Below, in pieces: positions 3,343 through 46,562 of a stretch of 64,000 nucleotides of DNA. The notes below the pieces were generated by a model. That model saw only the letters and a program-made list of their open reading frames with translations, did no database searches and was not told the DNA's origin. A program made the position numbers and the translations under genes. Numbering within the stretch: position 1 is the first letter of the stretch; each line of letters opens with the position of its first letter. This stretch comes from a virus: the IMG/VR virus record IMGVR_UViG_3300037470_000672, positions 32,001 through 96,000 of that record; one strand, 5' to 3'.

Positions 3343-3378
3343 GTCTCGGAATTTCAAAGATCCGAGCATCTTTTCAAG
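3343..3378 (-). repeat. Solo CRISPR repeat copy (33/36), 14 nt upstream of the XRE ATG
   Basis: GTCTCGGAATTTCAAAGATCCGAGCATCTTTTCAAG. Confidence 0.9.
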
Positions 3379-3571
3379 ACAACAAACAACTCATCACACG
3401 CCAGCTCGGCCGCGTGCGACCATGTCCGTCCGTCGTCCGGGTCTTCACTTCGCGTGACATACTCCAGCTTCTGGACTGCTTTGAGCAGTTTCCCTAGCTT
3501 GGCGCAGGGACTGCAAAGCGCCAGCGGCGCGTTGCAGTCGCCGCAGAAAGCGCACTCGGACTCGGAGCTGC

Positions 3572-3919
3572 TCATGCGCCGTCTCCGGCGTCTTTGCGGA
3601 TCCAATCCTCCGCAGCCTCCAGCCCGTCGATTGCATCCTTGATGTCCCGATCTTGAATGAAGCGCATCACCTGCTCTTCACCATCTCGCTGCCGCACCCT
3701 GCCGACCGAGACAGAGTACATGCGGCCGTTCTGCCCCTCCGCCGTCTGTACCTGGGTACGAACGTGACCGAAGTCGAAGTTGGTGGCGTTTTGCCACTCC
3801 AAACGGGGGCGCGGTGTACGCGCGGCGTACCCACCCTGCGACCGATCGCTGTACCCCTCCTGTGAGGGGTTCCCGTTGTACGACAGATTACTGTTTTGAC
3901 GGTGGTTCCTCTTGCCCAT
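3572..3919 (-). CDS. Hypothetical protein
   Basis: 115-aa ORF downstream of a TTGACA-16-TATAGT promoter (~3957-3984). Confidence 0.65.
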   Translation of the reverse strand: MGKRNHRQNSNLSYNGNPSQEGYSDRSQGGYAARTPRPRLEWQNATNFDFGHVRTQVQTAEGQNGRMYSVSVGRVRQRDGEEQVMRFIQDRDIKDAIDGLEAAEDWIRKDAGDGA

Positions 3920-4414
3920 GGTCTTGTGTTTCCCTCAGTCGTTGGGTGCCGGCTTGACTATACGCAGGACGCTTGGTGTGTCAAGCACGGTACAGGAAAA
4001 ACGCCGTACACGGCGCCAGTTCAGTTTTCTGGATCGGGTTCGGGTGATGCGGAGGGTGGGACCAACTCCTGGAAGCGGGGAGCGATTATTCCTTCCAGCT
4101 CTTCCAATCGCCCATGGACACGTAGTCCTTGGGACACCTGCTCAGCGATGCGCGCCAGACACTTGGTTCGCCCGCAGAAACATAGATTGTTGGGCTCGTC
4201 CGTCATGTGTCTCCCGGAAGGTTCCCATGGTCCACGAAGTGTTGGAGCAATGGAAGCAACACGGCTACTTGCCAGCGCGTCAGAAGCGACCGACGTCGCC
4301 GTCGCGCGCGGCCTCACGCAGCTCCGCGCATGCTTCGAGCTGATCTTCCAACTCCGCGACGCGCTGTTCGAGGTCTTTCACATCGAAAGCGCTCATGCGC
4401 TTCTTTGAGGAGAA

Positions 4415-4441
4415 AGGGGAGCGCTCCGCAGAGCGCTCCCC
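4415..4441 (-). terminator. Probable intrinsic terminator after the ArdC-like gene
   Basis: GGGGAGCGCTC-CGCA-GAGCGCTCCCC hairpin, followed by CTTTCT on the minus strand. Confidence 0.6.
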
Positions 4442-4452
4442 TTGGTTAAGGG

Positions 4453-5424
4453 TCATGCCGCCATCAGGCAGGCGTTCTCGGCCTTGAGTCGCTCGATTTC
4501 GGCCTTCATCTCGGCCAGGGTCATCTCGCTGGCTTTCTTGTCCTTGGCCGGCTTGGGCGCCTGCTCCTCGACGAAGGTGAGGATCTCTGCCGTCGCCTTC
4601 TGCACCCGGTCCGCCACCTTCTCGACCTTCTCCGGGTCGGAGCCGCTCCAGTGCGCGACGTAGCCAAAGGAGTAGCTGGCAGAGTCGACCCCCAGCGCGC
4701 TCATGACGCAGTAGGCCACGCTCTCGGCCTCCACCTCGCGGTAGTCCGTGGGGGTGTGGCACAAGCCCGACTCCTTGCTGTGCAGGATGACGTGGGCCAG
4801 CTCGTGGGCCAGGGTCTTGGCCTGCTGTGCCGGGCTGTTGGCCTCGTTGAGCGCGATGCGCTTCTCCGAGAAGACCACGTAGCCGCCCATGCCGTCGATC
4901 ATGCGCTCGGTCTCGATCGTGTAGCCCTTCTTTTGGGCCAGGTTGCTGAGCGCCGTGAACGCGAGGTCAGCGGCCGGAGACGAGCCGTCGAGGGTCTGGA
5001 TGACGTCCAGCTCGGGCAGGTCCGGACCCTCGGTCTGCGCGATGTCGTAGACGAAGACGGTCTTGAAGAATCGAACGAAGCGGTAGGGCTTCTCCTGCCC
5101 GTCTTCCGTCCGCTTACCCCAGCCGAAGATGGGGGCGCGGATGGCGATCTTTTTCTCGCTGGCCTTCACCCGACGACCGGTGCGGGTCTCCCACTGCCGA
5201 CGCCCCATGACGCGCGAGGCGCCCGGACGCTGGAGGTGGATGAGGAGCTGGTTGGTCCAGGAATACTTCCAGAACATCGCCTGGAAGGCGAGGAACTGGA
5301 CCCAGGCGTTCGAACCGATGAGCGCTTCGACGCCGCGCTTCATCTGCTCGACGAGGTCTTTCGCCTCGCTCTCCTTCTGGGCTTTGAACTGCGCCTTCTG
5401 GTCGGGAGTGAACTGCTTGCCCAT
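4453..5424 (-). CDS. ardC: ArdC-like antirestriction protein (N-terminal ssDNA-binding domain plus HELAH metallopeptidase-like domain)
   Basis: FWKYSWTNQLLIHLQRPGASRVMG..W motif; TLAHELAH; EVEAESVAY. Confidence 0.8.
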   Translation of the reverse strand: MGKQFTPDQKAQFKAQKESEAKDLVEQMKRGVEALIGSNAWVQFLAFQAMFWKYSWTNQLLIHLQRPGASRVMGRRQWETRTGRRVKASEKKIAIRAPIFGWGKRTEDGQEKPYRFVRFFKTVFVYDIAQTEGPDLPELDVIQTLDGSSPAADLAFTALSNLAQKKGYTIETERMIDGMGGYVVFSEKRIALNEANSPAQQAKTLAHELAHVILHSKESGLCHTPTDYREVEAESVAYCVMSALGVDSASYSFGYVAHWSGSDPEKVEKVADRVQKATAEILTFVEEQAPKPAKDKKASEMTLAEMKAEIERLKAENACLMAA

Positions 5425-5431
5425 CGTCTAT

Positions 5432-5496
5432 CCTCCTTCAGCGATCCTTCGCTGATCTGATTTGACAATCGTAGTCCTACAGTGTTTGTGTGTCAA
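5432..5496 (-). promoter_or_regulatory. Promoter TTGACA-17-TACGAT plus conserved leader CAGATCAGCGAAGGATCGCTGAAGGAGG
   Basis: 27 nt of the leader are identical at 28207-28233; related leaders occur at four other promoters. Confidence 0.8.
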
Positions 5497-5547
5497 GCAC
5501 GGATCCGAAAAAGATCAGATCTGCGTGTGCGCGCGGTCACCGTCCAC

Positions 5548-5590
5548 AAAGAAGAACCCCCGGCGACGCTCACTGCGGCCGGGGGCTTTC
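5548..5590 (-). terminator. Probable intrinsic terminator
   Basis: CCCCGGC...GCCGGGG stem followed by TTCTTCTTT on the minus strand. Confidence 0.55.
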
Positions 5591-5844
5591 CTCTGTGTGT
5601 ACTCACACCAGTTCGGGGCGGTCGTAGCCCCAACGCTTAACCGTAGTCCGTTTGCTCAGATCGGTTCGCCCGATGCGCTGTCTTGGGCACGCTAGCCGCC
5701 CAGCTTGCGATCTGACTGTTGGACCGTGGTTGTCCACCGACAAGGTAGAAGAGCATTGCCCGTAGGACGGCTTCAACTCCTTGTTGGCGGGGTGAAAAGC
5801 TACCTTAAACGCGGTCTTTTTCTGGGTCAAGTGTGGGACACAGA

Positions 5845-6177
5845 TCATTTCACCAGTAGGGTCTCGACCAGTGTGGCAAAGCAGATCGCCTTACTCAGCT
5901 CACGGTGAATGATGATGACCTCGGCGAGGCTCCCCGAAGCTGACTTGACGTGGATGACGGTTCTTCCGTCCGAGTACAGGCGGACCATCGCCTCTACACC
6001 GTCCGTCTGGCTGTGGAAGTTGAGGGAGATGCCGCCACTGGCCGAGTCCGGCAGCGTGCCTGCCTCGTAGGCGTCGGCCAAGGCTTCCAGCTCCTCAACC
6101 TCTTCGCGCTGCGGGTAGAAGCCGGAGCAGAGACTGATCTCGCCAAGGCTCTGTCGGAGGAGGCTGTAGTTGATCAT
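5845..6177 (-). CDS. Hypothetical protein
   Basis: ATGA overlap with 6174..6920. Confidence 0.55.
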   Translation of the reverse strand: MINYSLLRQSLGEISLCSGFYPQREEVEELEALADAYEAGTLPDSASGGISLNFHSQTDGVEAMVRLYSDGRTVIHVKSASGSLAEVIIIHRELSKAICFATLVETLLVK

Positions 6178-6920
6178 GTGCGCCTCGACACGATCGCTTC
6201 GTAGTCCGGCGCGCCCTGGAACTCGATGCTCACGACCGGGCGCTCCTCTTCCGGCAGACTGCGGATGTAGTCGCGGAGCGCGATGGCGGGTTCGTTGGCG
6301 AGGGTCATACCCTCCTCGGGGATCTTCGCCTCGATGTTCTCCAGGTCGAAGCCGGCCTCCTGGAGGGTCGTGAGGGTCTTCTCGTGCTGCTCCTCTTCGT
6401 GCTTCGCGCGCCACTCTTCCTGCTCGCGACGGAACTCCTCGTCACGCTGCTTCGCGCGCTCTTCCATCGCCTCCAAGGCACCAGCAAAGGTCGTGTCGGC
6501 GCTGAGCCCCACCTTCTCCAGGACGCCGAGCACAGCAGCCTCGCGCAGCACCAGGAGCATCTCGTGCTCGTAGACGTGTTGCGGATCGGCGCCCGTCTCA
6601 GCAGGATCGTAGTCCGGCGGGAAGACCGTGAAAGGCTCCGCGACGAAGATCCCTTGGTCACCCGCGTGGTCCGAGGGTCCGTTAAAAACGGTCGGCTCAC
6701 CAGCGTGCTCCCAGCACGCCTCGTGGTAGAGCGCGGCGCTATCAAGCGTCTCGTCCTCTTCGTGACCGATGTTGCCGTAGCCGTCGTAGGTCCCCTTGCA
6801 AACCGAGCCGTCTGGCAGGATGGCCACGGCCTGCTGCATCCAGTCCCGGTAACCGGCCGCCGAATACCCAGAGCGAATCGACCGGCCACAGCTCTTGCAG
6901 TTCCACGAGAAGAAACCCAT
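6174..6920 (-). CDS. Hypothetical protein (N-terminal CxxC)
   Basis: Strong RBS, leader and promoter TTGCCC-17-TAGGCT at 6962-6990. Confidence 0.75.
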   Translation of the reverse strand: MGFFSWNCKSCGRSIRSGYSAAGYRDWMQQAVAILPDGSVCKGTYDGYGNIGHEEDETLDSAALYHEACWEHAGEPTVFNGPSDHAGDQGIFVAEPFTVFPPDYDPAETGADPQHVYEHEMLLVLREAAVLGVLEKVGLSADTTFAGALEAMEERAKQRDEEFRREQEEWRAKHEEEQHEKTLTTLQEAGFDLENIEAKIPEEGMTLANEPAIALRDYIRSLPEEERPVVSIEFQGAPDYEAIVSRRT

Positions 6921-7045
6921 CTTGACCTCCTTCAGCGATTCATCGCCGATCTGTTTTTACAAGCCTAAACGTATTGGATACGTAGGGCAAGCACAAAGCG
7001 GGTGTTTGGAGCCGATCTGTTGTGACGGGCGCCCCACCTAACAAT

Positions 7046-7061
7046 CCGCCCGTACGGGCGG
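7046..7061. repeat. 16-bp perfect palindrome CCGCCCGTACGGGCGG (copy 1 of 5)
   Basis: Also at 10183, 30461, 46145 and 60764. Confidence 0.9.
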
Positions 7062-7069
7062 TTTGGGTC

Positions 7070-7279
7070 CTACTTACCTAGCGTCGCAGCTGGCTTCGCG
7101 GTTGGCTTCTCAGCCAGCTTCTGACCAGCGTCCTTCTGCGGCGTCGGTCCGGCGTCAGTCCTGGGCTCGACCGGCGCCTCTTCTTTGGCGGGAGCCTCAG
7201 CGGATTTGTCCGCCTTGGGGGTGCAGGCGATGAGCGCCAGCGCCGAGAGATTGAGACCGATGAGCAGAATGCGCAGCAT
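7070..7279 (-). CDS. Small lipoprotein
   Basis: Hydrophobic signal with LIAC lipobox; low-complexity P/A/K tail. Confidence 0.65.
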   Translation of the reverse strand: MLRILLIGLNLSALALIACTPKADKSAEAPAKEEAPVEPRTDAGPTPQKDAGQKLAEKPTAKPAATLGK

Positions 7280-7321
7280 GTGGAACCTCCATGCGCCGTC
7301 TGCTCCCTCGGGCCTGGACGT

Positions 7322-7957
7322 TCAAGGGGGTTCACGGAGTCCGATGCGGACCTTGAGCCGGTAGGACAACACCAACGAATTCGTACCGAAATCCTTGAAA
7401 ATCGCCTCGGTGACGAAGCGCAGACCCCCGGGTGTAGTGATGGCGGGAGCGATCTCGTACTCGGTCATCGCCAGGGACAGGGTGGTCACGCCGTCGCCGA
7501 GCAACGCCTCATCCTCGACGTAGGCGATCTCAACAGGGGCCGCGCCCTCGGCGCTCACGTACAAGGTGATGTCCTCAAAGAGGGTGGTGATGCTGCGCTC
7601 GTACTGTTCCACCATCTCGAAGGCGACGAACCTGGCTGATTCGATGTCGTCCATGCTGCGCCCAGCTTCTTGTATCCGGGCACGGATGGCGGCGTTCAGG
7701 GCGAACCCGACCTCGGGCGGGACGGTGTTCTCGGGGTAGAGGGGGTAGTACACATTGGACGCGGCAGGGTGGATGTCGTCGTTGTAGCCGTTGATCTGGA
7801 TCAGCTCATCCATCTCGACCTCGACGTACAGCAGGTCGGGGTCGTCTTCGGCTACGACGCCTTGGCCGGGGCCGGCGTCACTCTGTTGGGTCGGATCTGT
7901 ACCGCAGGCGCAAAAAGCCAGGGCGACGAACGGATAGAAGATAAGGGCTCTGTGCAT
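7322..7957 (-). CDS. Lipoprotein
   Basis: Signal peptide MHRALIFYPFVALAFCAC. Confidence 0.65.
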   Translation of the reverse strand: MHRALIFYPFVALAFCACGTDPTQQSDAGPGQGVVAEDDPDLLYVEVEMDELIQINGYNDDIHPAASNVYYPLYPENTVPPEVGFALNAAIRARIQEAGRSMDDIESARFVAFEMVEQYERSITTLFEDITLYVSAEGAAPVEIAYVEDEALLGDGVTTLSLAMTEYEIAPAITTPGGLRFVTEAIFKDFGTNSLVLSYRLKVRIGLREPP

Positions 7958-8071
7958 CGTGGCCTCCTGACAGTACAAGAAGCACGTTAACACATGCCGT
8001 CAAGGGCGCGAAAGCAAAGGGGAAATCTCTAGAAGTCTCCGGAACGTAAAACCCCTTACCTCAGAGAAAGA

Positions 8072-8198
8072 TGGCGGAGAGCGGTGGTCCTGATCCAGTC
8101 TCGGAATTTCAAGGATCCGAGCATCCTTTCAACATCCATAACGCATGCGCGTCCTGACGGGTAGCAGCCGTAGCCCGGGCCTCCCGGGTTCACTCTCC
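8072..8198 (-). pseudogene. tRNA-Ser(GCU) interrupted by a CRISPR repeat plus a 5-bp duplication
   Basis: Acceptor GGAGAGT/GCTCTCC-G-CCA; anticodon arm ACGG-CTGCTAC-CCGT; removing 41 bp gives an 86-nt class II tRNA. Confidence 0.85.
8098..8133 (-). repeat. Solo CRISPR repeat, 36/36 identical to the array repeat, flanked by ATCCA direct repeats
   Basis: ATCCA at 8093-8097 and 8134-8138. Confidence 0.95.
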
Positions 8199-8204
8199 AC
8201 AGGT

Positions 8205-8291
8205 TGGCAGCGGGCAGCGGAATCGAACCACGACGCCTAAGCGCCCTCCAGTTTTCAAGACTGGTCGCTCCCCATGAGCAGTACCCGCTTC
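8205..8291 (-). tRNA. tRNA-Ser(UGA), imperfect stems
   Basis: CCAGT-CTTGAAA-ACTGG anticodon arm, long variable arm, TTCGATT loop, 3' CCA. Confidence 0.7.
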
Positions 8292-8297
8292 ATGTAG

Positions 8298-8389
8298 TGG
8301 TGGCCCGAGCGAGAGTCGAACTCGCATGCCCCTCACAAGGCACCAGGGTCTGAGCCTGGCGTGTCTACCGGAAATTCCACCATCGGGCC
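8298..8389 (-). tRNA. tRNA-Leu(CAG)
   Basis: GGCCCGA/TCGGGCC acceptor, CCAGG-CTCAGAC-CCTGG anticodon arm, TTCGAC loop, CCA end. Confidence 0.9.
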
Positions 8390-8390
8390 A

Positions 8391-8466
8391 TTGTGCGGAC
8401 GGCAGGAGTCGAACCTGCACTGACCGGGATTTGACGCCGGACCCTCTGCCGTTGGGGTACGTCCGC
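8391..8466 (-). tRNA. tRNA-Leu(CAA)-like, short variable arm, degenerate (ends CAA)
   Basis: GCGGACG/CGTCCGC acceptor; GCAGG-TTCGACT-CCTGC T-arm; mismatch in the anticodon stem. Confidence 0.6.
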
Positions 8467-8960
8467 TAAGATTTCTCCTTCCAGCAGGCGCACTGAGGCG
8501 GGCGGTGATACGTACACCACGGCTCCGTTAGCCGGGCTTGCGTGACCGTGCTCTCCTGCGCCTCTCCCTGCGCGCAGCTCAATGGGAGGCATGCCGTACT
8601 TGGCGTGCAACAGCAGCTCCTTGCCCTCCGCTTTGGCTACCCGCCGAACCGTCTTCCAGATGCGCGCCGTCTCAGCGCGTAGATCGACCCCAGGGCGTGC
8701 CTCCCAAAGCGCCCGCTTACGCTCCCTGGCCGCCTCCTGGGCGGCGCAGCGTTTGGTCCGCTGCTTGGCTCGGACCCTGGCAGCTCGCTCGGCTTGCGCT
8801 GTCTGACGCGCCTCTTTCTTGGCTTCGATGGTTGGACAAGCGCGCTTCACGAGCCTGCCGGTCTTGTCGGAGCACGGTAGGCAGTAGCGGCGGGTATCGT
8901 CCAGGCGAGGTTTGCTCGGGGCGAGCTTACCCGTCTCGCAGCGGGGGCAGACCCAGCGTC

Positions 8961-10003
8961 TCACGCGGCGGGCTTCTTCCGGGTCTTGTAGGTGGCCTTG
9001 AGCGTGTCGAACAGGTCGGTGTTGTCGAGCATCGCAACGAAAGCGTCGAGGGATGTGCGGTCGATGGTGACGCGATCGACGGTACCGCTGACGGTGCCCA
9101 TGAGACCGCCGGATACGGGAAGCCCGATTTCTTCGAGGCGCTTGCGCTGCGCGTACCACTCGGTGTTGTAGGTCTCGACACGTGCCATCTTGCGCAAGTG
9201 CTCCTCGCGCGTACGCGCCTGCTTTTCACCCTGCTGCTGAACGTACTCGTCCCAGGGCATCAGGACTTCTTGCGGTCGCGCGACCCCGGAGAGCCACTCT
9301 TTGGGTGCGCCGCGGCACAGAGCGACGTTGATGCCCTTCCCTCCGGACCGTTCCTTGGCCCAGCACCCGCGGATATTTCCCACGTAGCCGTCGAAGCCGA
9401 GAATGATCCCCTTCCTCACGTGGCGGAAACCAGCTTTGGTCGAGATGCCGATGGCGTACGTCTCGCCGATCTGGATGTCTTTGCGTTTCATGCCCAGCTC
9501 ACTCCCAGGTCCAACTCCTGGGCCTTTTGCAGTACCTCATCCAACCGCTCCAGGCGGTCTGTGAGGCGGTTGTCGTCGTAACCGCACAGGATGTGCCGCC
9601 CCGATCGTCGGAGGGCCACGGTGCCGTCCTCCTGGGGAACGGTTCGCATCTCGCCACCGTAGGTCTCGGTCTCGGTGCGGAAGGGGGCGCGGACCTTGTC
9701 CTGGTTGAGCGCGCGCATGATAGCGCGGCGCATGTTGGCCACCTCTTCGGCGGGGACCGACCCGCGCAGATCTGGGTCCGCGTACCCCAGCATCCGGAGA
9801 AGGACCACAGCCGTGCGATTGGCCACATTGAGCGAGCACTCGGACTCGCTGTAGGTCACCCACCCACCCTGACAGGACGCACAACCCCACTCGGGAACGG
9901 GCACGCCGTCCGCCTCAGCGAACTCGCGCGTCTGCTCGCAAAGGAAACAATGCTCCCGTACCTCTTGCTTGGGGCCGTCGGTGGGGCAGAAAGTAACGCT
10001 CAT
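8961..10003 (-). CDS. Two hypothetical genes (8961..9491; 9488..10003)
   Basis: ATGA overlaps; promoter TTGCTC-17-TATACT at 10043-10071 with conserved leader. Confidence 0.65.
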
Positions 10004-10137
10004 GAGGAACCTCTTCAGGGAGTCTTCTCTGATCTGAGCTTGAGTATAGACAACGTAAGTGATCAGAGCAAGCCTGATCTGCGTGTAGGTGGTGTTTTTT
10101 TTTCTACTGCCTCGACGTTCGAGATATTCTACGGCTA

Positions 10138-10173
10138 GTCTCGGAATTTCAAAGATCCGAGCATCTTTTCAAC
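10138..10173 (-). repeat. Solo CRISPR repeat copy (34/36, variant B), 9 nt from the palindrome core at 10183-10198
   Basis: GTCTCGGAATTTCAAAGATCCGAGCATCTTTTCAAC. Confidence 0.9.
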
Positions 10174-10209
10174 ACACTCAATCCGCCCGTACGGGCGGAT
10201 CACATCTCG

Positions 10210-11350
10210 TCATCGCAGTAGCTCCTCCCCGTCCTTGTAGACGGCGTTCGCCAGCATGTCCGACTCGTTGCGAGGGTAGGAAGAGGTGGAGCTGTTCCAC
10301 GCCTTCTCGCGCAGCGCCTTTTTGCTGGGCGGACGCCAGCGGGGCGGCATCTCGTAAGCGCTGCGCAAGCGGTGGTGGAAGTTCTGCTGCGGCCCCGGAA
10401 TGTCGTGCCGAGCTGCACCAGACCAGGCAAGCTCACCTTTCTTGGCAAGCCAGTCGAGGGCAGCCTTGCGGGAGGATAGCCGCACAACCTTCGTCTCGGG
10501 GTGGCGCAGGTCGGTCGTCTGCTCGATGCCGTAGAAGACGGTCATCAGTTCGTTCTTCCTTTTTTCATCTCGGCCATGAGGAGGTCAGCTTGGACGGCGG
10601 TCTCTTCAGGAGAGAGGTCTGAAGTACCGCCTCGCTGGCAGCGCTCCCCCATGACGATCAACAGCTCCCGGACCTCGTTATCGGTCCATTGCTGAGGCTT
10701 TCCCGCGCGGTAAGTGTCGAGGAGTTTCTCCAGCGCGCTACTCTCCTCATCGGCCGCGAAACCAAGCGCTGCGGCCTCTTCCTGGAGGGAAAGAAGAAGC
10801 TGCACCTCCTGTCGGCGCTTGTCCAGCTCGCACTCCCACGCAACGATCTTGTTGGCAAGCGTCTTCGCCCTTTCTGGGTCCAAACGATCGACGAACCGTC
10901 TGAACCAGAAATCGCTCCGTTTCGTTGCGAGCTTGTCCGGGTATGTCACTCCTGACCCGCCTCAGTAACGATGATCTTGGGCACCGGTTCATCACCACAT
11001 TGGAACGGCTCGCTTGAAGCGATCGGTCGGGTATCCAGCCCCTCCGTGTAGAACTGGTGCCGAATGACTTGGACGACATCGAATGCGGCCCGGTGCGCAT
11101 TGGGGACCAGAGGGTTGTGGATGCTCGGTCCCCCGCTGGCGAAGTATGCCCCGCCCCCCATCCAGTTGACGATCTGGTGAAGCACGTCACGCGCTTCTGC
11201 CAACCCGTCGACGTAGCCCGGAAGATGCTGCGTGTTGTCGAGGACCGCGCTGGCAAGCTGTCCCATGCCCAAACGCGCCAGCGTGTCACACGCTTGCATG
11301 ATGGCACGCGCCTGACCCTCGGTCAGCTCCAGCCGGTACAGCTTCGTCAT
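10210..11350 (-). CDS. Three hypothetical genes (10210..10545; 10545..10949; 10946..11350)
   Basis: Coupled ORFs; TTGACG-17-TATAGT promoter immediately upstream of 11350. Confidence 0.65.
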
Positions 11351-11467
11351 GCTCTGACTATAGGCGCGCTATGTTATAGCGTCAAGCCGGGGCTACCTGA
11401 TCTTGCGTTGTCGGAGGTTGTTCCAGGTTCTATCGGACCACTCCAGCAGGGGCAGGGAAGAAGCTCT

Positions 11468-11503
11468 GTCTCGGAATTTCAAGGATCCGAGCATCCATTT
11501 AAC
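11468..11503 (-). repeat. Solo CRISPR repeat copy (34/36)
   Basis: GTCTCGGAATTTCAAGGATCCGAGCATCCATTTAAC. Confidence 0.9.
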
Positions 11504-12415: not shown

Positions 12416-12422
12416 GGAAGCG

Positions 12423-14313: not shown

Positions 14314-14319
14314 CGATCC

Positions 14320-23988: not shown

Positions 23989-24172
23989 GTATCGGAATTC
24001 CATATATCCGAGCATCTTTTCATCCCCACGCACGCCTCGAACGCCCGTAGCTGCCCACTCGTGTCTCGGAATTTCAAGGATCCGAGCATCCTTTCAACCA
24101 GTCGAGCTACCGCACGGCGACGGTCGCGTCGCTCTTGTCTCGGAATTTCAAGGATCCGAGCATCCTTTCAAC
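23989..24172 (-). CRISPR. CRISPR array: three 36-nt repeats, two 38-nt spacers
   Basis: Repeats at 24137-24172 and 24063-24098 (identical) and 23989-24024 (degenerate trailer, 29/36); starts 23 nt after the cas12 stop. Confidence 0.95.
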
Positions 24173-24195: not shown

Positions 24196-25974
24196 TTACT
24201 CACCTCCATCAGCGCTTTGCAAGCGCCGCGCTTGCTGCTCTTCGAGCATCCCGCGAAATCGTTGCTGCCTTCGGGAAAGCACCTTCTTTCCACTGTCTTG
24301 ACCCTCGCGAGCGCCTTCCTCGACAGGCGTCACCGCCGGGGCTCTCGCGAGCAGGTTGTGCGCGGCGTTCTCGTCCTGATCCCACTCCGCGCCACACTGT
24401 TCACACGTGTAGCGGAGTTTGGCTGCCTGGTCCCAGGTGTTGCGGTGCTGACAGCAGTGACAATCCGTTGTCGTCCACTCGGCTGGTACCTCGGCAATAT
24501 CGGCACCTCGCCGGCCGCATGCGTTGTGGATGCGCTGGCGCAGGTCTGATACGCAGGCGACAAATCGCCCGTAGTTCTGCTTGCGCTGGTCGCGGGTGCC
24601 TTCTTCGGCATCGCCCCGCTTAGTCGCGTCACGCAGGTCAAACTTCTCCAGCACCACTCGCGAATAGGCGGTGCTGAGCGTGTTGGCGAACTGCCGGTAC
24701 ACCTCTCGTCGCTGGCGCAGAACCCGGCGCGACTCCTCAACCTCCCACTGCCCAAGGTGCAAGTCGTTGCGGCGCCACGCCTCCAGTCGCTCCACCAGGT
24801 CGGCAGGCATCTGGTCACGATGCTCGTCGTAGAGCCGCAGGACCCGTCGTGGGTTGCGCCAGAGATGGACGTGCGCGGGGTCTGCGCCCATCGCCTCGTG
24901 GTCGACTGTCTGGAGCCATGCGTGGATGCGGGGCTTGACCTCGTCGAATATCTTATCCCGCACAGCTCGGATGCTGTCTGCATGCTGGTCCTTGCGCAGC
25001 ATCATGGCGGGGAGCCGCAGCTCGCCCTCGCGGCCGAATTCGTCGACCCAGTAGGCGACGCGCAGACTGCCGTCGTCAAGTAGCCGCCAGCCGACGTCGA
25101 TCGCTACGGTGCCGTGGCCGCATGCGACCTTTTCAGGCTCGGCGTCGACGACGAACTGCACCTTCCACACGTATCGGGTCGCGCGCTTTTGGCGTAGCAA
25201 GTGGACCCACTTGATCCGTCCCGCGGGCAACGGCTGATGGTAGTCGATGGGGATGACGGCGAAGATCGGATCGCGGCCTTCGCTGCCGACGCGAAAGCGC
25301 ATCACGGTCTTCTGTAGCCGCCGGCGCCCCTTGCGCGAATCGGATTGGGCGGTCGGTCGTTCGATCCAGCAGCGCGTGTCGGGCTCGTGGATGAGCGCAG
25401 CATCCAGCCCGCCCTGAAGCTGGACCGCGAGATGTCCGTTACCGGTCCAGCGCTTGAAGTGCGGGTCCGCGATTGCTTTGCTGGCCTGTTCGACCGCCTG
25501 CTCCACGATGAGGTACGTGCCCCAGTACAGACCGGACGCAGCGCGGGCGCTTTTCACCTGGTCGGCGGCCGTCTTGTTGACGTCCGCTAGCGCCGTCTGA
25601 ACAACGGCGTCGTCCGCAATGAGTGCTTTAGCAACGCGAAGGTCGGCGCGAGCCGCCTTCAGGCGAGGCTTCAGCTCGCAGGCGCGGTCTCGCAACATCT
25701 GCGTCGCCAGCTTGGCAGCCGAGCGGGTTTGGCGACGTAGGAGGTTGATCTCCGCGCGCACGTTGTGCAGTTCATCGGCCAGTGTTTTGACCTCGCCTGC
25801 GAGCTTTTCGGTGTCGGGGTGACCTTCGAGCACTTCGCGCACCTTCTGGCGCCGCGCTCGCTCGATCTCGACAAGCGCGTTGTGATAACGATGCGCCAAG
25901 TGCATCTGATCACTGACCAGGTCAGCCATGTCAGTCGCTGTTTTAGCGCGGTACTCGTAAATACGGACTGTCAT
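24196..25974 (-). CDS. cas12m: Type V CRISPR effector, Cas12m-like (V-M/V-U1), 592 aa
   Basis: Long helical N-terminus with LYWGTY and GHLAVQLQ; RuvC D293 (AIDVGWR), E443, D534 (DQDENAA); Cys Zn-finger; adjacent array. Confidence 0.8.
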   Translation of the reverse strand: MTVRIYEYRAKTATDMADLVSDQMHLAHRYHNALVEIERARRQKVREVLEGHPDTEKLAGEVKTLADELHNVRAEINLLRRQTRSAAKLATQMLRDRACELKPRLKAARADLRVAKALIADDAVVQTALADVNKTAADQVKSARAASGLYWGTYLIVEQAVEQASKAIADPHFKRWTGNGHLAVQLQGGLDAALIHEPDTRCWIERPTAQSDSRKGRRRLQKTVMRFRVGSEGRDPIFAVIPIDYHQPLPAGRIKWVHLLRQKRATRYVWKVQFVVDAEPEKVACGHGTVAIDVGWRLLDDGSLRVAYWVDEFGREGELRLPAMMLRKDQHADSIRAVRDKIFDEVKPRIHAWLQTVDHEAMGADPAHVHLWRNPRRVLRLYDEHRDQMPADLVERLEAWRRNDLHLGQWEVEESRRVLRQRREVYRQFANTLSTAYSRVVLEKFDLRDATKRGDAEEGTRDQRKQNYGRFVACVSDLRQRIHNACGRRGADIAEVPAEWTTTDCHCCQHRNTWDQAAKLRYTCEQCGAEWDQDENAAHNLLARAPAVTPVEEGAREGQDSGKKVLSRRQQRFRGMLEEQQARRLQSADGGE

Positions 25975-28200: not shown

Positions 28201-28211
28201 CTTGCACTCCT

Positions 28212-30423: not shown

Positions 30424-30597
30424 GTGCCCGGCTCTTTCATTTCCGAGACGTACCCTCAATCCGCCCGTACGGGCGGATCGGGGTTGAAGAGAGGGTGCTC
30501 AGATCCTTGGAATTCCAAGACCGACGCGCTGTCAGCAACACCAACCCGAGCCGTCTTAGGTGTCTCGGAATTTCAAGGATCCGAGCATCCTTTCCGG
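30415..30597. CRISPR. Head-to-head repeat cluster: degenerate + copy 30415-30449, + copy 30483-30521, minus copy 30562-30597
   Basis: Aligned by eye to the array repeat; 33-nt and 40-nt intervening segments. Confidence 0.75.
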
Positions 30598-30633
30598 AAA
30601 AAGAGAAAACCCCCAGTCGTGTCCAACTGGGGG
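30598..30633 (-). terminator. Intrinsic terminator
   Basis: 8-bp CCCCCAGT/ACTGGGGG stem plus TTTTCTCTTTTT on the minus strand. Confidence 0.8.
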
Positions 30634-40503: not shown

Positions 40504-40519
40504 GGGGTCGAAGCTCCTA

Positions 40520-42751
40520 TCAGGACACACCCGGTCCGCGGCTGATGAACATCGGCATGTAGAGCACATCCACTGTTGTGGCGACGCCGTCAGCGCCTTG
40601 AACGATGCCGACCTGGAAGACAACGCGGTTGTTCGCTCCTGCGGGGATGGACGTGTCTACCTGACCCGCCGTAGTCGACAGGTAGCAGGGAAGGCCGTTG
40701 AAAGCCGACGCAGGGGCAGACACGAAGCGAATCGGAACCAAAGACCCTGGCGCGGTGTAAATCTGCGCCGGGTTGCCTGCCGTCGCTGCCGCTCGGGTCA
40801 CGCCCGTTACCAGCCCATCGGATAGTGTTCCGGTGTCGGCATCTGCTAGGCCGACGTCTCCGTCAGATTCGATCTGTACGACGTCTCCTGCCGTCAGCGT
40901 GTCGTTGGTCGTGAAGATGAGACCGGCGCCGCCTGCGATGTTGCTGAACTGCGGAAGGTCAACCTTCTCCAACCCCGCCGTTGAGTCCAAGACGAGAAAG
41001 TCGTCCGCGCCGTCCGTGACGGTAAGCGCGGTCGCGCTCGCGTTGGGGATGGTGTAGGTCGAGTCATCTGCGGAGCTGAGCAACAGGCTGCCGCTCGTCG
41101 TAGTGCTCAGGGCGAGGTTGCCGGCGTCCGCCGTCACGTTGCTGGCGCCGGTGCCGTCAATCGAAAACGCACCGGTCGCAAGCATGTCGAACGTGCCGGT
41201 GACGTCGATGTCGAGGTTGGCGCCTGCGTTGATGTCGATCAATCCGCCGGCCGTCAGGTCGATCTCATCGTCCGATGAGACGAGCACGTTGCCCGTACCT
41301 GCCCCGGCGTTCGTGGCGCTGAGAGTCAGGTTCTCCGCACCGGCGCTGTTCCCGGTGACCGTCAGGTTGGAGCTGGTCACCGCGTCGAGGGAGATGCTCG
41401 TGGTGGCGTCGACCGTTACCGCAGTCCCGTCTACGTCTACGTTGACCGCGGCGTCGATGACCACGTCACCAGAGGTGGTCGTGTTGAGCGTCAGGTTCCC
41501 GGACGCCGCCGTGACGTTGGACGCCCCTGTCCCGTCGATGCTGAACGCCCCTGTCGCCAGGATGTCTACGGTCCCTGTGACATCGACATCCAGGTTGGCT
41601 CCGGCGTTGATGTCAACCAAGCCGCCTGCGGTGAGGTCGATCTCATCATCTGCGGAGAGGAGAACGTTCCCGGCACCGGCGCCTGCGTTGGTAGCCGCCA
41701 GCGTCAGGTTGATGGTCCCGGCGTCGTTGCCTGTGACCGTGAAGTTCGAGGAGGTGATGGCGTCCAGGGAGATGGATGCCGTGGCGTCGAAGAGGATGTT
41801 CGCCGCGTCTGCGTCGATGTCGCCTGTGGCGTTGAGGACTACGTTCCCGGACGTAGTTGTGCTGAGCGTCAGGTTTCCGGCGTCCACGGAGACGTTCGAT
41901 GCGGCTGTGCCGTCGATGGAAAACCCGTTGGTGCCCGACATCTGGACGTCGAAGACCGTCCCATCGAAGTCGAGCTGGGTATCGATGTCGATACCCCCGG
42001 TCGCAGTGATGAGGAGCTGCTCGGTGCCGGAGATGACAACGTCACCCTCAGCCGCCGACGTCGTGATCGTGTTGCCGTTTTCGTACGCTGTTTGGAGCGT
42101 TACCGCCGAAGCTGAGATGTCGGAGAACGACAACGGTGTAGAGCTACCGAAAGCGGTCTCCCAGGCGCCGTCCGCGCCTGCCCGCATGACGGACACGTTG
42201 ACCTTGCGGATCGTGCCCTGGGCTGTGTTGTCCGTATCGAACTGGTTCTGGGTGAAGTCCTCGTCCGTGGCGGTTGTGCCGATGCCGCGGATGGTCAGGG
42301 TGGTGCCGACGTGGCTGAGTACCTCGAACAGCCCGTTGTTCTGCGGATCGGCGGCGCCTGTGATCTGAATCAGATCACCAGCCGCGAACGTAGCCGTTCC
42401 TGTCGTGACCACCGTCGGGTTGGAGGTCGCCGGAACTCCGGCCGTGAACCCTCCCGCAGCGACGGTATCGTTCGTAGAGGTCGGAAGGTAGTTGACAACC
42501 AAGCCGCCCGTTTGGGCGGCCACCGTTTCGTACCCGCTGTTCAGGTAGAGGTGGTTATCGTCGAAGGAAACAGTCTCGGCCTGCTCCGTAACCATCGCAC
42601 CGCGAACCGTGAGGTTCGCGGTAATCAGTACATCGTTTTGAAGCTCCATCCGAGCACTGATCTGGAGATTGTCAGCCGCCTCGATGGTTCGAGGGAGAAA
42701 CGGCGCGGAGGCGTCCAAGATCTGGATGTTGTCTACTTGGTTTCCGGCCAC
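40520..42751 (-). CDS. 743-aa virion fibre/decoration-like protein with internal ~120-aa repeats
   Basis: Repeated FSIDGT..SNV..GNL.L.TTTSG units; C-terminal domain paralogous to 42760..43524. Confidence 0.7.
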   Translation of the reverse strand: MAGNQVDNIQILDASAPFLPRTIEAADNLQISARMELQNDVLITANLTVRGAMVTEQAETVSFDDNHLYLNSGYETVAAQTGGLVVNYLPTSTNDTVAAGGFTAGVPATSNPTVVTTGTATFAAGDLIQITGAADPQNNGLFEVLSHVGTTLTIRGIGTTATDEDFTQNQFDTDNTAQGTIRKVNVSVMRAGADGAWETAFGSSTPLSFSDISASAVTLQTAYENGNTITTSAAEGDVVISGTEQLLITATGGIDIDTQLDFDGTVFDVQMSGTNGFSIDGTAASNVSVDAGNLTLSTTTSGNVVLNATGDIDADAANILFDATASISLDAITSSNFTVTGNDAGTINLTLAATNAGAGAGNVLLSADDEIDLTAGGLVDINAGANLDVDVTGTVDILATGAFSIDGTGASNVTAASGNLTLNTTTSGDVVIDAAVNVDVDGTAVTVDATTSISLDAVTSSNLTVTGNSAGAENLTLSATNAGAGTGNVLVSSDDEIDLTAGGLIDINAGANLDIDVTGTFDMLATGAFSIDGTGASNVTADAGNLALSTTTSGSLLLSSADDSTYTIPNASATALTVTDGADDFLVLDSTAGLEKVDLPQFSNIAGGAGLIFTTNDTLTAGDVVQIESDGDVGLADADTGTLSDGLVTGVTRAAATAGNPAQIYTAPGSLVPIRFVSAPASAFNGLPCYLSTTAGQVDTSIPAGANNRVVFQVGIVQGADGVATTVDVLYMPMFISRGPGVS

Positions 42752-42759
42752 TTTTACCT

Positions 42760-44543: not shown

Positions 44544-44557
44544 ATCTCAGGTTCTCG

Positions 44558-45355
44558 TCAGGTCGTGGGATCTAGGATCTTACTCCTGGCACCGAGAGAA
44601 TACGGCGCCAAGCCGAAGTCGACAGGCGTGAGTGGCTGGGAACGCGGCGTAGGCGCAAACCGCACAGCTCCGTCTAGAGCGTCGGTTGCGGACGGGAAGT
44701 GTACCTGCCCTTGGTACTGCGCCGACTGAGCAAAGGCCATGTTCACGGCAACTATACGCGGTAACCCGCTCGGAAAGAACGCCTCAAAGGTTACGTCACA
44801 CAACGTCATGAACGCAATAATAGAGTCTCGTGCGGTAGACGAAGCTTGCCCCCCGTACAAGCCTATTCCGGAGTTGGGGAGGTAGAGCTTGACCTTGCGC
44901 GGAGCGAAGACCGTGGTGGTTCCTACAGACCCCTCCGGCCCGTACCGAGGAAGGATGTGTCGCCGGAGCCAGACGATAGCCGCGCGTATGTCGACGTTTC
45001 GATCAATGGCTCCGATGTTGGCTAGTGCTGCCAATCTAGCCGTGTTCACTTGCTGACCGGGCTGACCGCTAGCAGTGATCGTCAGGTCTATGTCTGTCGT
45101 GAAGACGGCCGTAAAGGTAATGAGCCGTTCACCGGTGCTCATCCACTGGTACAGCGGGAGGGTCGCCCCTGGAATCTCTTTGGGGTTGTAGTTGACCTGT
45201 TTTTGGTCGTTCAGCGAGTCGGGGAAATACTGGAAGCGCAGGAAGTCCCCTATCGGGGTGTCGTCCTGATCGTCCAGGGTCAGAAGAAGCGCATCTGCCC
45301 GCTTTTCGTTGTGAACGGGGTTGAGCGCGCTGGCTAGTGATCTCAGCGCGACCAT
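44558..45355 (-). CDS. Contractile tail tube/initiator-like protein
   Basis: FQYFPDSL.DQKQVNY; LPLYQW...GER.ITFTAVF; DVTFEAFFPSGLPR pattern. Confidence 0.55.
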   Translation of the reverse strand: MVALRSLASALNPVHNEKRADALLLTLDDQDDTPIGDFLRFQYFPDSLNDQKQVNYNPKEIPGATLPLYQWMSTGERLITFTAVFTTDIDLTITASGQPGQQVNTARLAALANIGAIDRNVDIRAAIVWLRRHILPRYGPEGSVGTTTVFAPRKVKLYLPNSGIGLYGGQASSTARDSIIAFMTLCDVTFEAFFPSGLPRIVAVNMAFAQSAQYQGQVHFPSATDALDGAVRFAPTPRSQPLTPVDFGLAPYSLGARSKILDPTT

Positions 45356-45370
45356 GCGTTCCCTTCTGGG

Positions 45371-46447
45371 CTACGCGGCTTTCTTCTTGCCGCTGGCCTT
45401 CTTCTTCTTTCCACGACGCCAGGCGCCGTACTTCTCACGATAGGCCGCGTTGTACCCTGCCTTGTAGGCGGGGTTCACGCTGAAGCGCTTGGTCTGACCG
45501 TTCGGACCGGAGCACTGGCACTGGTAGTTGGCGCATCGGCAACTCCAGTCATCGGTCTCGCCACGCGGTGTGCTCTTGTAGCCCGGAAGGTTCGCACCAC
45601 CGATGTCCGAACCGCCACGCGGTCCCGTAGCGTTGAAGGGGTTTTGCTCCTTCTCCGCCAGGCTTCGATCGAATTCGAGGAAGACTGCGCTCAGTTCTTC
45701 AAGAAGGTCTTCGTTCACGCTGCGACCCCATCAGCCGCCGCGGCTGGGTTTGGGTACTCTTTGAGCTTCGCTTCCCAATTCACTTCTTCTACACGGTATA
45801 CCGAAACGAGGCGAAGCTCAAACTCCGGATCTGCCCTCAGAACATGGCGGAAATCTCCACTTCGATCCGGGTTGAACATGAAAAACGTACCCAGTTTGCC
45901 GGTTCGGCGGTTCTTGGACAGACCGAGAAAAGCGCCGGGAGTCGCACGTCGGAGCTGCTTGTGCGCATCCGAGGAGCCGTGCGGAGCAAGTACCCCACAC
46001 AAGCGCTTCCAGTCATACCGTACAGCTTTGGCGCCTTTCCGAGCGACGAAACGATCGGCGCGAACGTGGCACTCCGTCAGGACAACGTCTGTCCCGCCTT
46101 CAGCTTGCACACCTACCACATGGTCTACCATGGGAAATTCTCGTCCGCCCGTACGGGCGGATTCAGCGGGCGCCTGTGATTGGCTTCCCCTCACCGAGGG
46201 CTTGCAGCGACGCTTCGACGCTCTCACGCAGGTGCAGCAGAATCTGCTTGGCCTCCTCGAACTGGTCGCCGCGGATGGCCTGGAGCGCGTGCCCGAGCGT
46301 CGCCTGATGCACCGAGATCGACTCGTAGGCGGTTTTCTTGTTCACCCCGAGCTGCTCGGGGGTCTTGGACAGACGCCAACCTGCGTAGGGGCCGTCCCCT
46401 AAGGCGACGCTGCGCATCTCTTCAAGGAGGCTGTTCGGGTTGCTCAT
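45371..46447 (-). CDS. Three small hypothetical genes (45371..45718; 45715..46131; 46163..46447)
   Basis: Coupled ORFs; GGAG RBS before 46447. Confidence 0.55.
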
Positions 46448-46459
46448 GCAGGCTCCGGC

Positions 46460-46562
46460 GTCTCGGAATTTCAAATATCCGAGCATCTGTTCATTGGTGC
46501 GGGCCATATCCACCGGATTGGCCGTGGTCTCGGAATTTCAAAGATCCGAGCATCTTTTCAAC
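46460..46562 (-). CRISPR. Orphan mini-array: repeat 46527-46562 (34/36), 31-nt spacer, degenerate repeat 46460-46495
   Basis: Direct reading; same repeat family as the 23989 array. Confidence 0.85.

What the first reader, a model, noticed from the sequence alone, without database searches (positions are those of the whole stretch)
3343..46562. Compensatory base change between repeat variants indicates a selected RNA fold (possible pseudoknot)
Seen: variant A (8098, 24063, 24137, 30562) reads AAGGAU-GCUCGG-AUCCUU in RNA sense. Variant B (3343, 10138, 46527) reads AAAGAU-GCUCGG-AUCUUU. The only two core differences swap a G-C pair for an A-U pair in the same stem. The loop CUCGG is complementary to the 3' CCGAG, allowing either an H-type pseudoknot or a switch between two hairpins. 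The + copy at 30483 keeps all six stem pairs using G-U wobbles. Inference: dispersed copies are under structural selection, or variant B comes from a second active array elsewhere in the genome.
Basis: partly seen in the sequence, partly recalled or inferred. Interest (0 to 1): 0.7.

Follow-up and report, generated by a model that had tools for sequence, protein, structure and literature searches.

The report
Phage Cas12m repeat pseudoknot, scattered copies
The repeat is the guide-RNA handle of a CRISPR protein (Cas12m) encoded by a large T4-like phage; its stem-plus-pseudoknot fold is already known, but the phage also keeps 18 lone copies at gene boundaries, which suggests it uses Cas12m on its own messenger RNAs.

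Summary
The 36-nt unit (RNA sense is the minus strand: GTTGAAAGGATGCTCGGATCCTTGAAATTCCGAGAC) is the CRISPR repeat of a phage-encoded type V-M system. A 592-aa Cas12m homologue (window 24196-25974, minus; E=2e-80 to a solved Cas12m) lies 23 nt upstream of a 3-repeat mini-array.

Forty-three repeats from phage Cas12m loci covary at all 9 pairs tested. Variant B is the repeat type of a second array at the contig ends. The fold is therefore known biology in a new member.

I found no paper describing the rest. This 176-kb T4-like phage has 18 solitary copies:
- all are co-oriented with local transcription;
- 16 are intergenic, and several lie 10-26 nt before a start codon;
- the 24-nt scaffold core has diverged 3%, against 23% for the 5' 12 nt.

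Three other complete Cas12m phages without a T4-type capsid gene show the same layout. This scan has already noted it on other genomes.

Best reading of the solos, inferred at about 45%: Cas12m docking or processing sites on the phage's own mRNAs.

The parts
24196..25974 (-). cas12m gene: 592-aa type V-M effector homologue
   Evidence: phmmer against PDB: 23vw_A 'Cas12m' E=2.2e-80 over residues 18-544, and 8pm4_A 3e-23. Pfam Cas12f1-like_TNB 1.3e-10. RuvC motifs AIDVGWR / VVLEKFD / WDQDENAAHN and four zinc-ribbon Cys are conserved.
23989..24172 (-). Mini-array of 3 repeats (24137-24172, 24063-24098, and a degenerate terminal repeat at 23989-24024) with two 38-nt spacers. It starts 23 nt after the cas12m stop. 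Repeat type A.
   Evidence: Spacing of 74. The last repeat has 7 mismatches, as terminal repeats often do. The next ORF starts 11 nt after it.
46460..46562 (-). Two-repeat unit (46527-46562 of type B, 46460-46495 degenerate) with one 31-nt spacer, placed between two genes
   Evidence: It starts 2 nt after a stop codon, and the second repeat ends 12 nt before an ATG.
1871..1906 (-). Solitary repeat with G8-U21 (the wobble intermediate), 40 nt after a stop and 47 nt upstream of a promoter-like site
2346..2381 (-). Solitary repeat that overlaps the last 5 nt of the upstream ORF; a GGAGG and an ATG follow 22 nt downstream
3343..3378 (-). Solitary repeat of type B, with an ATG 14 nt downstream
8098..8133 (-). 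Solitary repeat of type A (exact consensus), about 70 nt downstream of tRNA-Ser and tRNA-Leu on the same strand
10138..10173 (-). Solitary repeat of type B, 8 nt after the GC hairpin CCGCCCGTACGGGCGG
   Evidence: (family D7)
11468..11503 (-). Solitary repeat of type A with one stem mismatch, 83 nt upstream of a promoter-like site
30562..30597 (-). Solitary repeat of type A directly after an intrinsic-terminator-like hairpin with a U tract, at a convergent gene junction
30486..30521 (+). The only plus-strand copy. It lies 62 nt after the stop of a short plus-strand gene block, just after a GC hairpin. The stem is kept with 2 G-U pairs; the pseudoknot helix has 2 mismatches.

Best explanation
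SHOWN. The 36-nt unit is the CRISPR repeat of a type V-M (Cas12m) system carried by a ~176-kb T4-like phage. Its RNA folds as the Cas12m crRNA scaffold: stem 6-11/18-23, whose 6-nt loop pairs with 30-34 to form an H-type pseudoknot, followed by A35 C36 and then the guide. The G-C/A-U difference between variants A and B is a compensated change in that stem. It separates two repeat lineages: type A in the mini-array beside cas12m, and type B' in a second array 56 kb away. Solitary copies derive from both lineages.

SHOWN. The genome also holds 18 solitary copies. All are on the locally transcribed strand and 16 are intergenic. The 24-nt scaffold core is held almost constant while the 5' 12 nt have drifted.

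INFERRED. The selective agent is binding by the phage's own Cas12m. The solitary copies are transcribed as parts of phage mRNAs, where Cas12m binds them and probably cuts just 5' of the scaffold, as it does in pre-crRNA. This would split polycistronic messages. It would also leave Cas12m sitting on the ribosome-binding site of the downstream gene, which in several cases starts at guide position +1. The result would be control of stability or translation. The direction of the effect is unknown.
For: Cas12m identity. No Cas1 in the genome, as is usual for V-M.

Published scaffold geometry: PMC10442227 and PMC11013384.

Family-wide covariation in 43 repeats: 85% of cells paired; score 0.596 against 0.21+/-0.02 in shuffles (0/500) and at most 0.20 for slid partners; every one of the 9 pairs has changes on both sides.

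Second array of type B'.

Solitary copies:
- 16 of 18 are intergenic in a genome that is 90% coding (P~2e-13).
- 18 of 18 are co-oriented with local genes, including the single plus-strand copy, which lies behind plus-strand genes.
- Start codons lie 10-26 nt downstream at genome 34346, 120496, 128577, 141239, 145787 and 163394 by the trained gene model. By the first-start ORF scan they also do at 35343 and 142359.
- Mismatch rate is 23% in positions 1-12 against 3% in 13-36 (P=3e-15).
- There is no tail of decayed copies at 4-6 core mismatches.
- Strong hairpins lie immediately 5' of four solos.

Same layout, each with its own repeat sequence, in complete phages G001 (110 kb), G003 (178 kb, 23 copies) and G004 (180 kb, 20 copies on one strand). 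None of these has a gp23-type capsid gene. In G004 the solos differ from the array repeat by another compensated stem change.
Against: Nothing here is experimental.
- Within this genome the stem is supported by one covarying pair only, possibly one event. The stem is degenerate in the three most diverged solos (genome 120496, 127873, 141239).
- Two solos lie inside predicted coding genes.
- As free RNA the nested minimum-energy fold is the 13-18/29-34 hairpin alone, and z-scores are unremarkable (-1.5 to -1.9).
- In the early region the solos sit upstream of promoter-like sites, so they are in 3' ends rather than leaders. One mechanism may not fit all copies.
- How Cas12m processes pre-crRNA is itself unresolved in the literature.
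- My gene calls come from a home-made codon model.
Confidence: 0.8

Rival explanations
1. The solitary copies are stand-alone guide RNAs. Each repeat plus its fixed downstream sequence makes a crRNA-like RNA that sends the DNA-binding Cas12m to a target elsewhere, either in the host genome or in a related rival phage that lacks the repeat insert at that site. The target would be silenced without cutting.
For: Cas12m interferes by binding DNA and blocking transcription (PMC11013384, PMC10442227). Regulatory crRNA-like RNAs made from single or degenerate repeats are known for types I and V-A (abstract).
Against: Downstream sequences have no match elsewhere in the phage genome beyond chance. Anchored 12-mers gave 1 hit against about 0.6 expected, and 13-mers gave 0. 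Many of the 'guides' are simply the RBS and start of the next phage gene. At the self locus the PAM position would be GAC, whereas the characterised Cas12m PAM is TTN. No close relative or host could be found to test trans targets.
Confidence: 0.2
2. The solitary copies are non-functional by-products: remnants of decayed or recombined arrays, or repeats spread by recombination, tolerated only where they do no harm (between genes).
For: Intergenic location alone could reflect purifying selection against insertions in genes. The contig ends show two array versions, R-X-R-Y and R-X-R-S4-R-S3-R-S2-R-Y, so repeats do recombine. Several solos have stem mismatches.
Against: Neutral relics should decay evenly and in either orientation. 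Instead the core is 3% diverged against 23% for the 5' part, and there is no decay tail. Eighteen of 18 are co-oriented with transcription. The same pattern recurs, with unrelated repeat sequences, in three other complete phages that lack a T4-type capsid gene.
Confidence: 0.15
3. The solitary copies are RNA anti-CRISPR decoys (Racr-like). They would soak up a Cas12m belonging to the host or to a competing element by mimicking its repeat.
For: Viral single repeat units that act as dominant-negative crRNA mimics are established (review PMC11656645).
Against: The cognate effector is encoded by the phage itself, next to an array of the same repeat. The repeat was not found in 185,579 species genomes, in IMG/VR or in JGI metagenomes. 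Eighteen copies embedded at gene junctions, without promoters of their own, is unlike known Racrs. They would mostly titrate the phage's own Cas12m.
Confidence: 0.07
4. The two helices are mutually exclusive states of a switch (hairpin 6-11/18-23 versus hairpin 13-18/29-34) rather than a pseudoknot.
For: The nested minimum-energy fold of the free RNA is the second hairpin alone, at -8.6 kcal/mol and about 68% of the ensemble. Position 18 can pair in either helix.
Against: Both helices covary across 43 repeats. Loop lengths of 1, 0 and 6 nt fit an H-type knot. Two independent cryo-EM structures of Cas12m RNPs show stem and pseudoknot formed together and stacked.
Confidence: 0.08

Closest known systems
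Type V-M CRISPR-Cas12m (Cas12m2, GoCas12m, MsCas12m; PMC10442227, PMC11013384; PDB 23vw, 8pm4)
   Same: Effector of ~600 aa with the same domain order (E=2e-80 to 23vw_A). Array directly beside the gene. No cas1 and no sign of a tracrRNA. A 36-nt repeat whose 3' ~30 nt form stem + pseudoknot and end in GAC.
   Different: It is carried by a T4-like lytic-type phage rather than a plasmid or chromosome. It has a canonical D-E-D-type RuvC motif set. It has two small arrays plus 18 solitary repeats spread over the genome. Targets and PAM are unknown.
MvCas12m of myxophage MV-1 (bioRxiv 10.64898/2026.09.14.751636)
   Same: A phage-encoded Cas12m with an adjacent array, no adaptation genes and no protospacer matches.
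   Different: That report describes one array only and calls itself the first phage Cas12m. It does not mention solitary repeats (a term search of the text gave 0 hits). Here 78 IMG/VR loci encode relatives, and about a quarter of the distinct systems show solos within 10 kb.
Viral solitary repeat units / RNA anti-CRISPRs (Racr; reviewed in PMC11656645)
   Same: Single CRISPR repeats without a neighbouring repeat in a virus genome, presumably bound by a Cas protein as RNA.
   Different: Known Racrs mimic the host's repeat and inhibit the host's effector. Here the repeat matches the phage's own effector, the copies are many, and they are embedded in mRNAs at gene junctions.
crRNA-like regulatory RNAs (CreR / crlRNA / Cracr; bioRxiv 10.1101/2023.03.03.530964 and 10.1101/2024.10.29.618823)
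   Same: Repeats exapted for regulation rather than immunity. They are often degenerate on one side and work with a non-cleaving mode of the effector.
   Different: Those act in trans through a spacer partly complementary to a promoter. No such complementarity was found here, and the position suggests action in cis on the RNA.
T4 RegB endoribonuclease and RegA translational repressor; engineered Csy4/Cas12a processing of polycistronic RNAs (own knowledge, not checked in papers here)
   Same: This is an analogy of mechanism only: a phage or designer protein that recognises short RNA signals at ribosome-binding regions or gene junctions, and so cuts or silences many messages.
   Different: There is no homology. 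RegB and RegA recognise short linear motifs, not a 24-nt pseudoknot scaffold, and no natural Cas12-based case has been described to my knowledge.

Membership tests
Type V-M CRISPR-Cas (Cas12m) | Effector homologous over its full length to characterised Cas12m, ~550-650 aa, with a C-terminal RuvC split by a zinc-ribbon (TNB) domain | tested here: met
   23vw_A E=2.2e-80 over residues 18-544 of 592; 8pm4_A 3.2e-23. PF07282 1.3e-10. C505/C508/C524/C527 invariant in 41 homologues.
Type V-M CRISPR-Cas (Cas12m) | CRISPR array adjacent to the effector gene; no adaptation module; no tracrRNA | tested here: met
   The array starts 23 nt after the stop. Cas1 profile: no hit in the genome, while controls gave hits. 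The only antisense repeat copy is 6 kb away at a convergent junction. The absence of a tracrRNA is inferred, not shown.
Type V-M CRISPR-Cas (Cas12m) | Repeat of ~36 nt whose 3' part forms a stem plus a pseudoknot pairing with nt -8..-3, ending in A(-2)C(-1) | tested here: met
   Own repeat: stem 6-11/18-23, pseudoknot 13-17/30-34, then AC. Covariation across 43 repeats. Published geometry.
Type V-M CRISPR-Cas (Cas12m) | PAM-dependent DNA binding without cleavage; self-processing of pre-crRNA | not testable with these tools
   Acidic residues of all three RuvC motifs are present. D-E-D variants characterised in PMC11013384 also only bound DNA. Bench tests are needed.
RNA anti-CRISPR (Racr) solitary repeat units | The repeat mimics that of a CRISPR-Cas system of the host, not of the virus | tested here: inconclusive
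   The host is unknown. The repeat core is absent from GTDB species genomes, IMG/VR and JGI metagenomes. A cognate effector is encoded by the phage itself.
crRNA-like regulatory RNAs (CreR / crlRNA) | The sequence next to the repeat is partly complementary (PAM-proximal ~11-16 nt) to a promoter of a cas or cargo gene | tested here: not met
   Anchored seed matches elsewhere in the phage genome are at chance level: 12-mers 1, 13-mers 0. blastn-short found nothing above chance. Host targets could not be tested.
IS200/IS605-type PATE/MITE (TnpB-associated repeat) | Conserved element of 100-300 bp with both transposon ends, and similarity extending beyond the repeat | tested here: not met
   Similarity stops at the 36 nt. 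Flanks are unrelated in all copies. Arrays have regular 67-78-nt spacing.

The most novel reading that the evidence does not exclude
Large phages have turned a CRISPR effector into a regulator of their own messages. Cas12m would recognise about 20 copies of its crRNA scaffold placed at gene junctions, cut or sit on those mRNAs, and so set the stability or translation of early, recombination and head genes. That would be a CRISPR-derived post-transcriptional regulon, present in at least two phage lineages that do not share a capsid type.
Probability: 0.4. Interest if true: 0.85.

Novelty: new variant of a known kind. Interest (0 to 1): 0.6.

Why it matters
The fold itself adds little. It extends the solved Cas12m scaffold to a large, almost wholly viral clade and shows by covariation that both helices are under selection.

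The value lies in the context. Phage-borne Cas12m was first reported in September 2026 as a single case. Here 78 viral loci encode it, and several complete phages scatter the cognate RNA handle through their genomes in a pattern that looks selected. If Cas12m acts on these sites in mRNA, that would be a natural example of a DNA-targeting class 2 effector reused for RNA-level gene control. It would also offer a ready-made compact part (a 24-nt handle plus a 592-aa protein) for operon processing. The idea is directly testable with a two-cistron reporter.

Tried and rejected
- Rfam (gathering thresholds) found only two tRNAs.
- Spacer targets: nothing in the phage's own genome. Nothing significant in 50,697 phage records (E 0.2-0.8). 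No exact 21-mers of two spacers in IMG/VR. PAM and targets therefore stay unknown.
- Trans targets of the sequences downstream of solos: at chance level.
- Close relatives for an orthologous-site comparison: the repeat core is absent from IMG/VR, GTDB genomes and JGI metagenomes. The UvsX-like protein has no near relative in IMG/VR. megablast of 6.4 kb against phage records gave no match.
- The closest Cas12m (49% identity, L120) has a different repeat, so it could not enlarge the alignment around variants A and B.
- A TnpB/IS element or MITE reading was rejected because similarity ends at 36 nt and spacing is regular.
- My first gene caller, based on GC3, was poor (69% coding). I replaced it with a self-trained codon model.
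- I first read the contig ends as a simple 140-bp overlap. The exact comparison shows they share repeat-spacer-repeat and then diverge, so there are two versions of one array.
- MAFFT placed this phage's three repeats one column out of register with the others in A2. The pair counts therefore understate pairing for these rows.


Full report
WHAT IS THERE. The window is bases 32001-96000 of a 175,906-bp IMG/VR virus contig. Genes run almost entirely on the minus strand: 233 of 244 by a self-trained codon model, with 90% of the genome coding. Head genes are of the T4 type: a gp20-like portal interrupted by an intein and an HNH domain, a gp21-like protease and a gp23-like capsid protein. There are also a UvsX-like recombinase, a ribonucleotide reductase and two tRNAs. 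Most other proteins match nothing in Pfam or PHROGs.

THE REPEAT. The repeated unit is 36 nt. In RNA sense (minus strand) it reads GTTGAAAGGATGCTCGGATCCTTGAAATTCCGAGAC. A full-length search allowing 10 substitutions finds 31 hits, which are 29 distinct places because the contig ends duplicate two. A looser search on the 24-nt core finds no more, and shuffled genomes give 0.2. The copies are:
- a main array of 6 identical repeats at genome 3-419;
- a 3-repeat mini-array at window 23989-24172;
- a 2-repeat unit at window 46460-46562;
- 18 solitary copies, 8 of them in the window.

The two contig ends share repeat-spacer-repeat and then diverge. The contig therefore opens and closes inside one array that exists in a long and a short version. 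The genome is probably circular or circularly permuted.

CHECK OF THE OBSERVATION. Number the repeat 1-36. The stem is 6-11 with 18-23, the loop is 12-17, and loop bases 13-17 (CUCGG) pair with 30-34 (CCGAG). Variants A and B differ at 8 and 21 only, giving G-C against A-U. The plus-strand copy (30486-30521) keeps all six stem pairs, two as G-U, but breaks two pairs of the second helix.

Over the 21 distinct sequences, pair 8-21 is GC in 11, AU in 5, GU in 4, CU in 1 and never AC. The association of A8 with U21 gives P=0.012. The sequences are related, so this may be one event with a G-U intermediate still present (window 1871). On its own that is suggestive only.

WHAT IT IS. The 592-aa ORF at window 24196-25974 (minus) matches a solved 'CRISPR-associated DNA-binding protein Cas12m' (23vw_A) at E=2.2e-80 over nearly its full length. 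It matches 8pm4_A, the next-best chain (deposited as 'Transposase'), at 3e-23; TnpB and Cas12f match only over the RuvC/zinc-ribbon end. The mini-array begins 23 nt after its stop codon, and its last repeat is degenerate, which fixes the minus strand as the crRNA strand. No Cas1 is encoded. This is a type V-M system.

Published cryo-EM structures describe the Cas12m crRNA scaffold as follows. There is a 36-nt repeat-derived part whose first ~7 nt are disordered. A stem stacks coaxially on a pseudoknot formed by -22..-17 with -8..-3. The scaffold ends in A(-2) and C(-1) (PMC10442227). [quoted passage not shown] In that numbering the present repeat has its stem at -31..-26 with -19..-14 and its pseudoknot at -24..-20 with -7..-3, followed by A(-2)C(-1).

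INDEPENDENT TEST OF THE FOLD. A profile of 41 homologues retrieved 78 loci in IMG/VR viral contigs, against only 9 in one genome for each of 185,579 prokaryote species (which used a single peptide pattern). This clade therefore looks mainly viral. The exhaustive protein search found 3,001 representatives at E<=1e-10.

I extracted 40 distinct array repeats from the viral loci by script and aligned them with three repeats of this phage (A2). On the structure of 4 stem pairs plus 5 pseudoknot pairs:
- 85% of cells pair;
- all 9 pairs show changes on both sides;
- the covariation score is 0.596, against 0.210+/-0.022 for shuffled partners (0 of 500 reach it) and at most 0.20 when partners are slid by 1-3 columns;
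- the pseudoknot helix pairs in 94% of cells.

This phage's own rows sit one column out of register in that alignment, so the figures are conservative. As free RNA the nested optimum is the 13-18/29-34 hairpin alone, at -8.6 kcal/mol with z about -1.6. That is expected for a short pseudoknot that a nested-fold program cannot represent.

THE TWO VARIANTS. The main array, outside the window, carries AAAGAT...ATCTTT plus G at position 25 (type B'). The mini-array beside cas12m carries type A. The three type B solos equal B' except at position 25, or equal A except for the compensated pair. The two repeat lineages differ by a change that keeps the stem paired.

In another complete phage (G004, 180 kb) the solitary copies differ from the array repeat in the same way. 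GCC/GGC becomes GCT/AGC, and a C-A mismatch becomes C-G.

THE SOLITARY COPIES. I found no paper describing this part.
- Sixteen of the 18 solos lie between predicted genes, although only 10% of the genome is intergenic (P~2e-13). The two exceptions lie inside the 514-aa and 304-aa genes that follow the portal gene.
- All 18 follow the local direction of transcription. The single plus-strand copy lies 62 nt behind a short plus-strand gene block at a convergent junction, facing a minus-strand copy that follows a terminator-like hairpin.
- At six or more junctions the start codon is 10-26 nt after the repeat. At genome 120496, 141239 and 142359 a Shine-Dalgarno-like AGGAG/GGGAGG begins at the first base after the repeat, which is the position a crRNA guide would occupy.
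- The last repeats of the mini-array and of the 2-repeat unit are placed the same way, 11-12 nt before a start.
- In the early region (window 1800-11500) the solos instead lie after a gene, and 47-83 nt before a promoter-like site.
- Four solos directly follow a strong hairpin.
- Positions 1-12 differ from consensus at 23% of sites, and positions 13-36 at 3% (P=3e-15). There are no copies with 4-6 core mismatches. The part conserved is the part that Cas12m holds in the solved complexes. The part that drifts is the part that is disordered or cut off.

RECURRENCE. The same layout occurs with unrelated repeat sequences in complete phage genomes:
- G001 (110 kb): a 7-repeat array plus about 6 solos.
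- G003 (178 kb): 23 copies.
- G004 (180 kb): 20 copies, all on one strand, 9 of them in the array.

Their solos also lie shortly after stops and before starts, some behind hairpins. None of these three has a gp23-type capsid gene, although the same search finds it in this phage. So the trait is not confined to one phage lineage. About a quarter of the 40 distinct systems show two or more solos within 10 kb of cas12m, almost always on the cas12m strand. In several, solos sit just upstream of cas12m itself. The scan's notebook shows that other agents have reported the same phenomenon on other phage genomes. I treat those notes as leads, not as support.

MECHANISM. What is shown is the identity of the system, the fold and the selected-looking distribution. 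What is inferred is the following: the solos are transcribed within phage mRNAs and bound by Cas12m; Cas12m cuts 5' of the scaffold, as in pre-crRNA; the upstream fragment is left with a 3' hairpin where one is present; and the downstream cistron starts with a protein-bound handle that covers its ribosome-binding site. I put this docking or processing reading at about 45%. The direction of the effect is unknown.

ALTERNATIVES.
- Stand-alone guides against the host or rival phages. Nothing matches within the phage, and neither host nor relatives could be found.
- Neutral relics. This fits badly with the orientation, the uneven divergence, the missing decay tail and the recurrence.
- Racr-like decoys. 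The effector is the phage's own.

WHAT IS KNOWN. Cas12m biology and structure are established (PMC10442227, PMC11013384). V-M is described as enriched on plasmids and present in some prophages (PMC11656645). A September 2026 preprint reports 'the first Cas12m identified in a bacteriophage', with one array, and does not mention solitary repeats. Solitary repeats as anti-CRISPR RNAs and degenerate mini-arrays as trans-acting regulators are known for other types. My searches found no description of cognate solitary repeats spread through a phage that encodes the effector. The library lacks most subscription-journal papers, including the original Cas12m paper (Wu et al. 2022), so this absence is provisional.

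VERDICT.

Noticed in passing
genome 1-460 and 175760-175906 (outside the window; L001, L021, L022): The contig begins and ends inside the same CRISPR array. Both ends share repeat-spacer-repeat (about 116 nt) and then continue with different spacers. This fits a 6-repeat and a 3-repeat version of the array in the sampled population, and a circular or permuted genome that IMG/VR lists as linear and 83% complete.
   Followed up: partly
L123:10618-14712 (genome 128618-132712, minus): The T4-type portal gene encodes 1,364 aa because it carries an intein splicing domain plus an HNH endonuclease and an HTH domain. A solitary repeat starts 5 nt after its stop.
   Followed up: partly
window 7034-7064, 10171-10201, 30449-30479, 60752-60782: A second dispersed element: the GC hairpin CCGCCCGTACGGGCGG (4 copies in the window, one more at genome ~915). 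Three of the five lie directly 5' of a solitary Cas12m repeat.
   Followed up: partly
window 5432-5500, 6926-6994, 28206-28274 (read on the minus strand): A repeated early-promoter cassette: TTGACA-type -35 and -10 boxes, then the hairpin AGCGAAGGATCGCT and a GGAGG just before the start codon.
   Followed up: no
window 41097-41918: Two diverged (73-74% identical) tandem copies of a 378-bp segment inside the 743-aa ORF that has a weak DUF2345 match (spike or baseplate-like).
   Followed up: no
window 30437-30640: Convergent junction. A minus-strand terminator-like hairpin with a U tract and a minus-strand solo face a plus-strand GC hairpin and the plus-strand solo, 40 nt apart. Read-through RNA from either side would fold repeat against anti-repeat into a long imperfect duplex.
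   Followed up: partly
L124:4390-5358 (genome 142390-143358, minus): A 322-aa PD-(D/E)xK-type exonuclease matching PHROG families named 'exonuclease' and 'CRISPR/Cas system associated' (Cas4/RecB-like). A solitary repeat overlaps its last 5 nt.
   Followed up: no
L126-L132 (phage G004): Several G004 solos are followed within 0-25 nt by a second, partial copy of only the last 11 nt of the repeat (GTATCTGAGAC), which is the 3' strand of the pseudoknot. A weaker echo (CGAGAC) follows the solo at window 3343.
   Followed up: no
L120:5730-5990: The closest Cas12m homologue (49% identity) has an array of 4-5 shorter repeats (~30 nt core, GTGTGCTCGTCCACTTCAACGACGAGAC) spaced only 58-68 nt apart. That implies spacers of about 26-36 nt, with the same stem + pseudoknot plan.
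   Followed up: partly
window 13030-14313 and 19599-21974: A PAPS-reductase/DUF3440 protein and a class II-like ribonucleotide reductase are encoded near cas12m. These are auxiliary metabolic genes of the phage.
   Followed up: no
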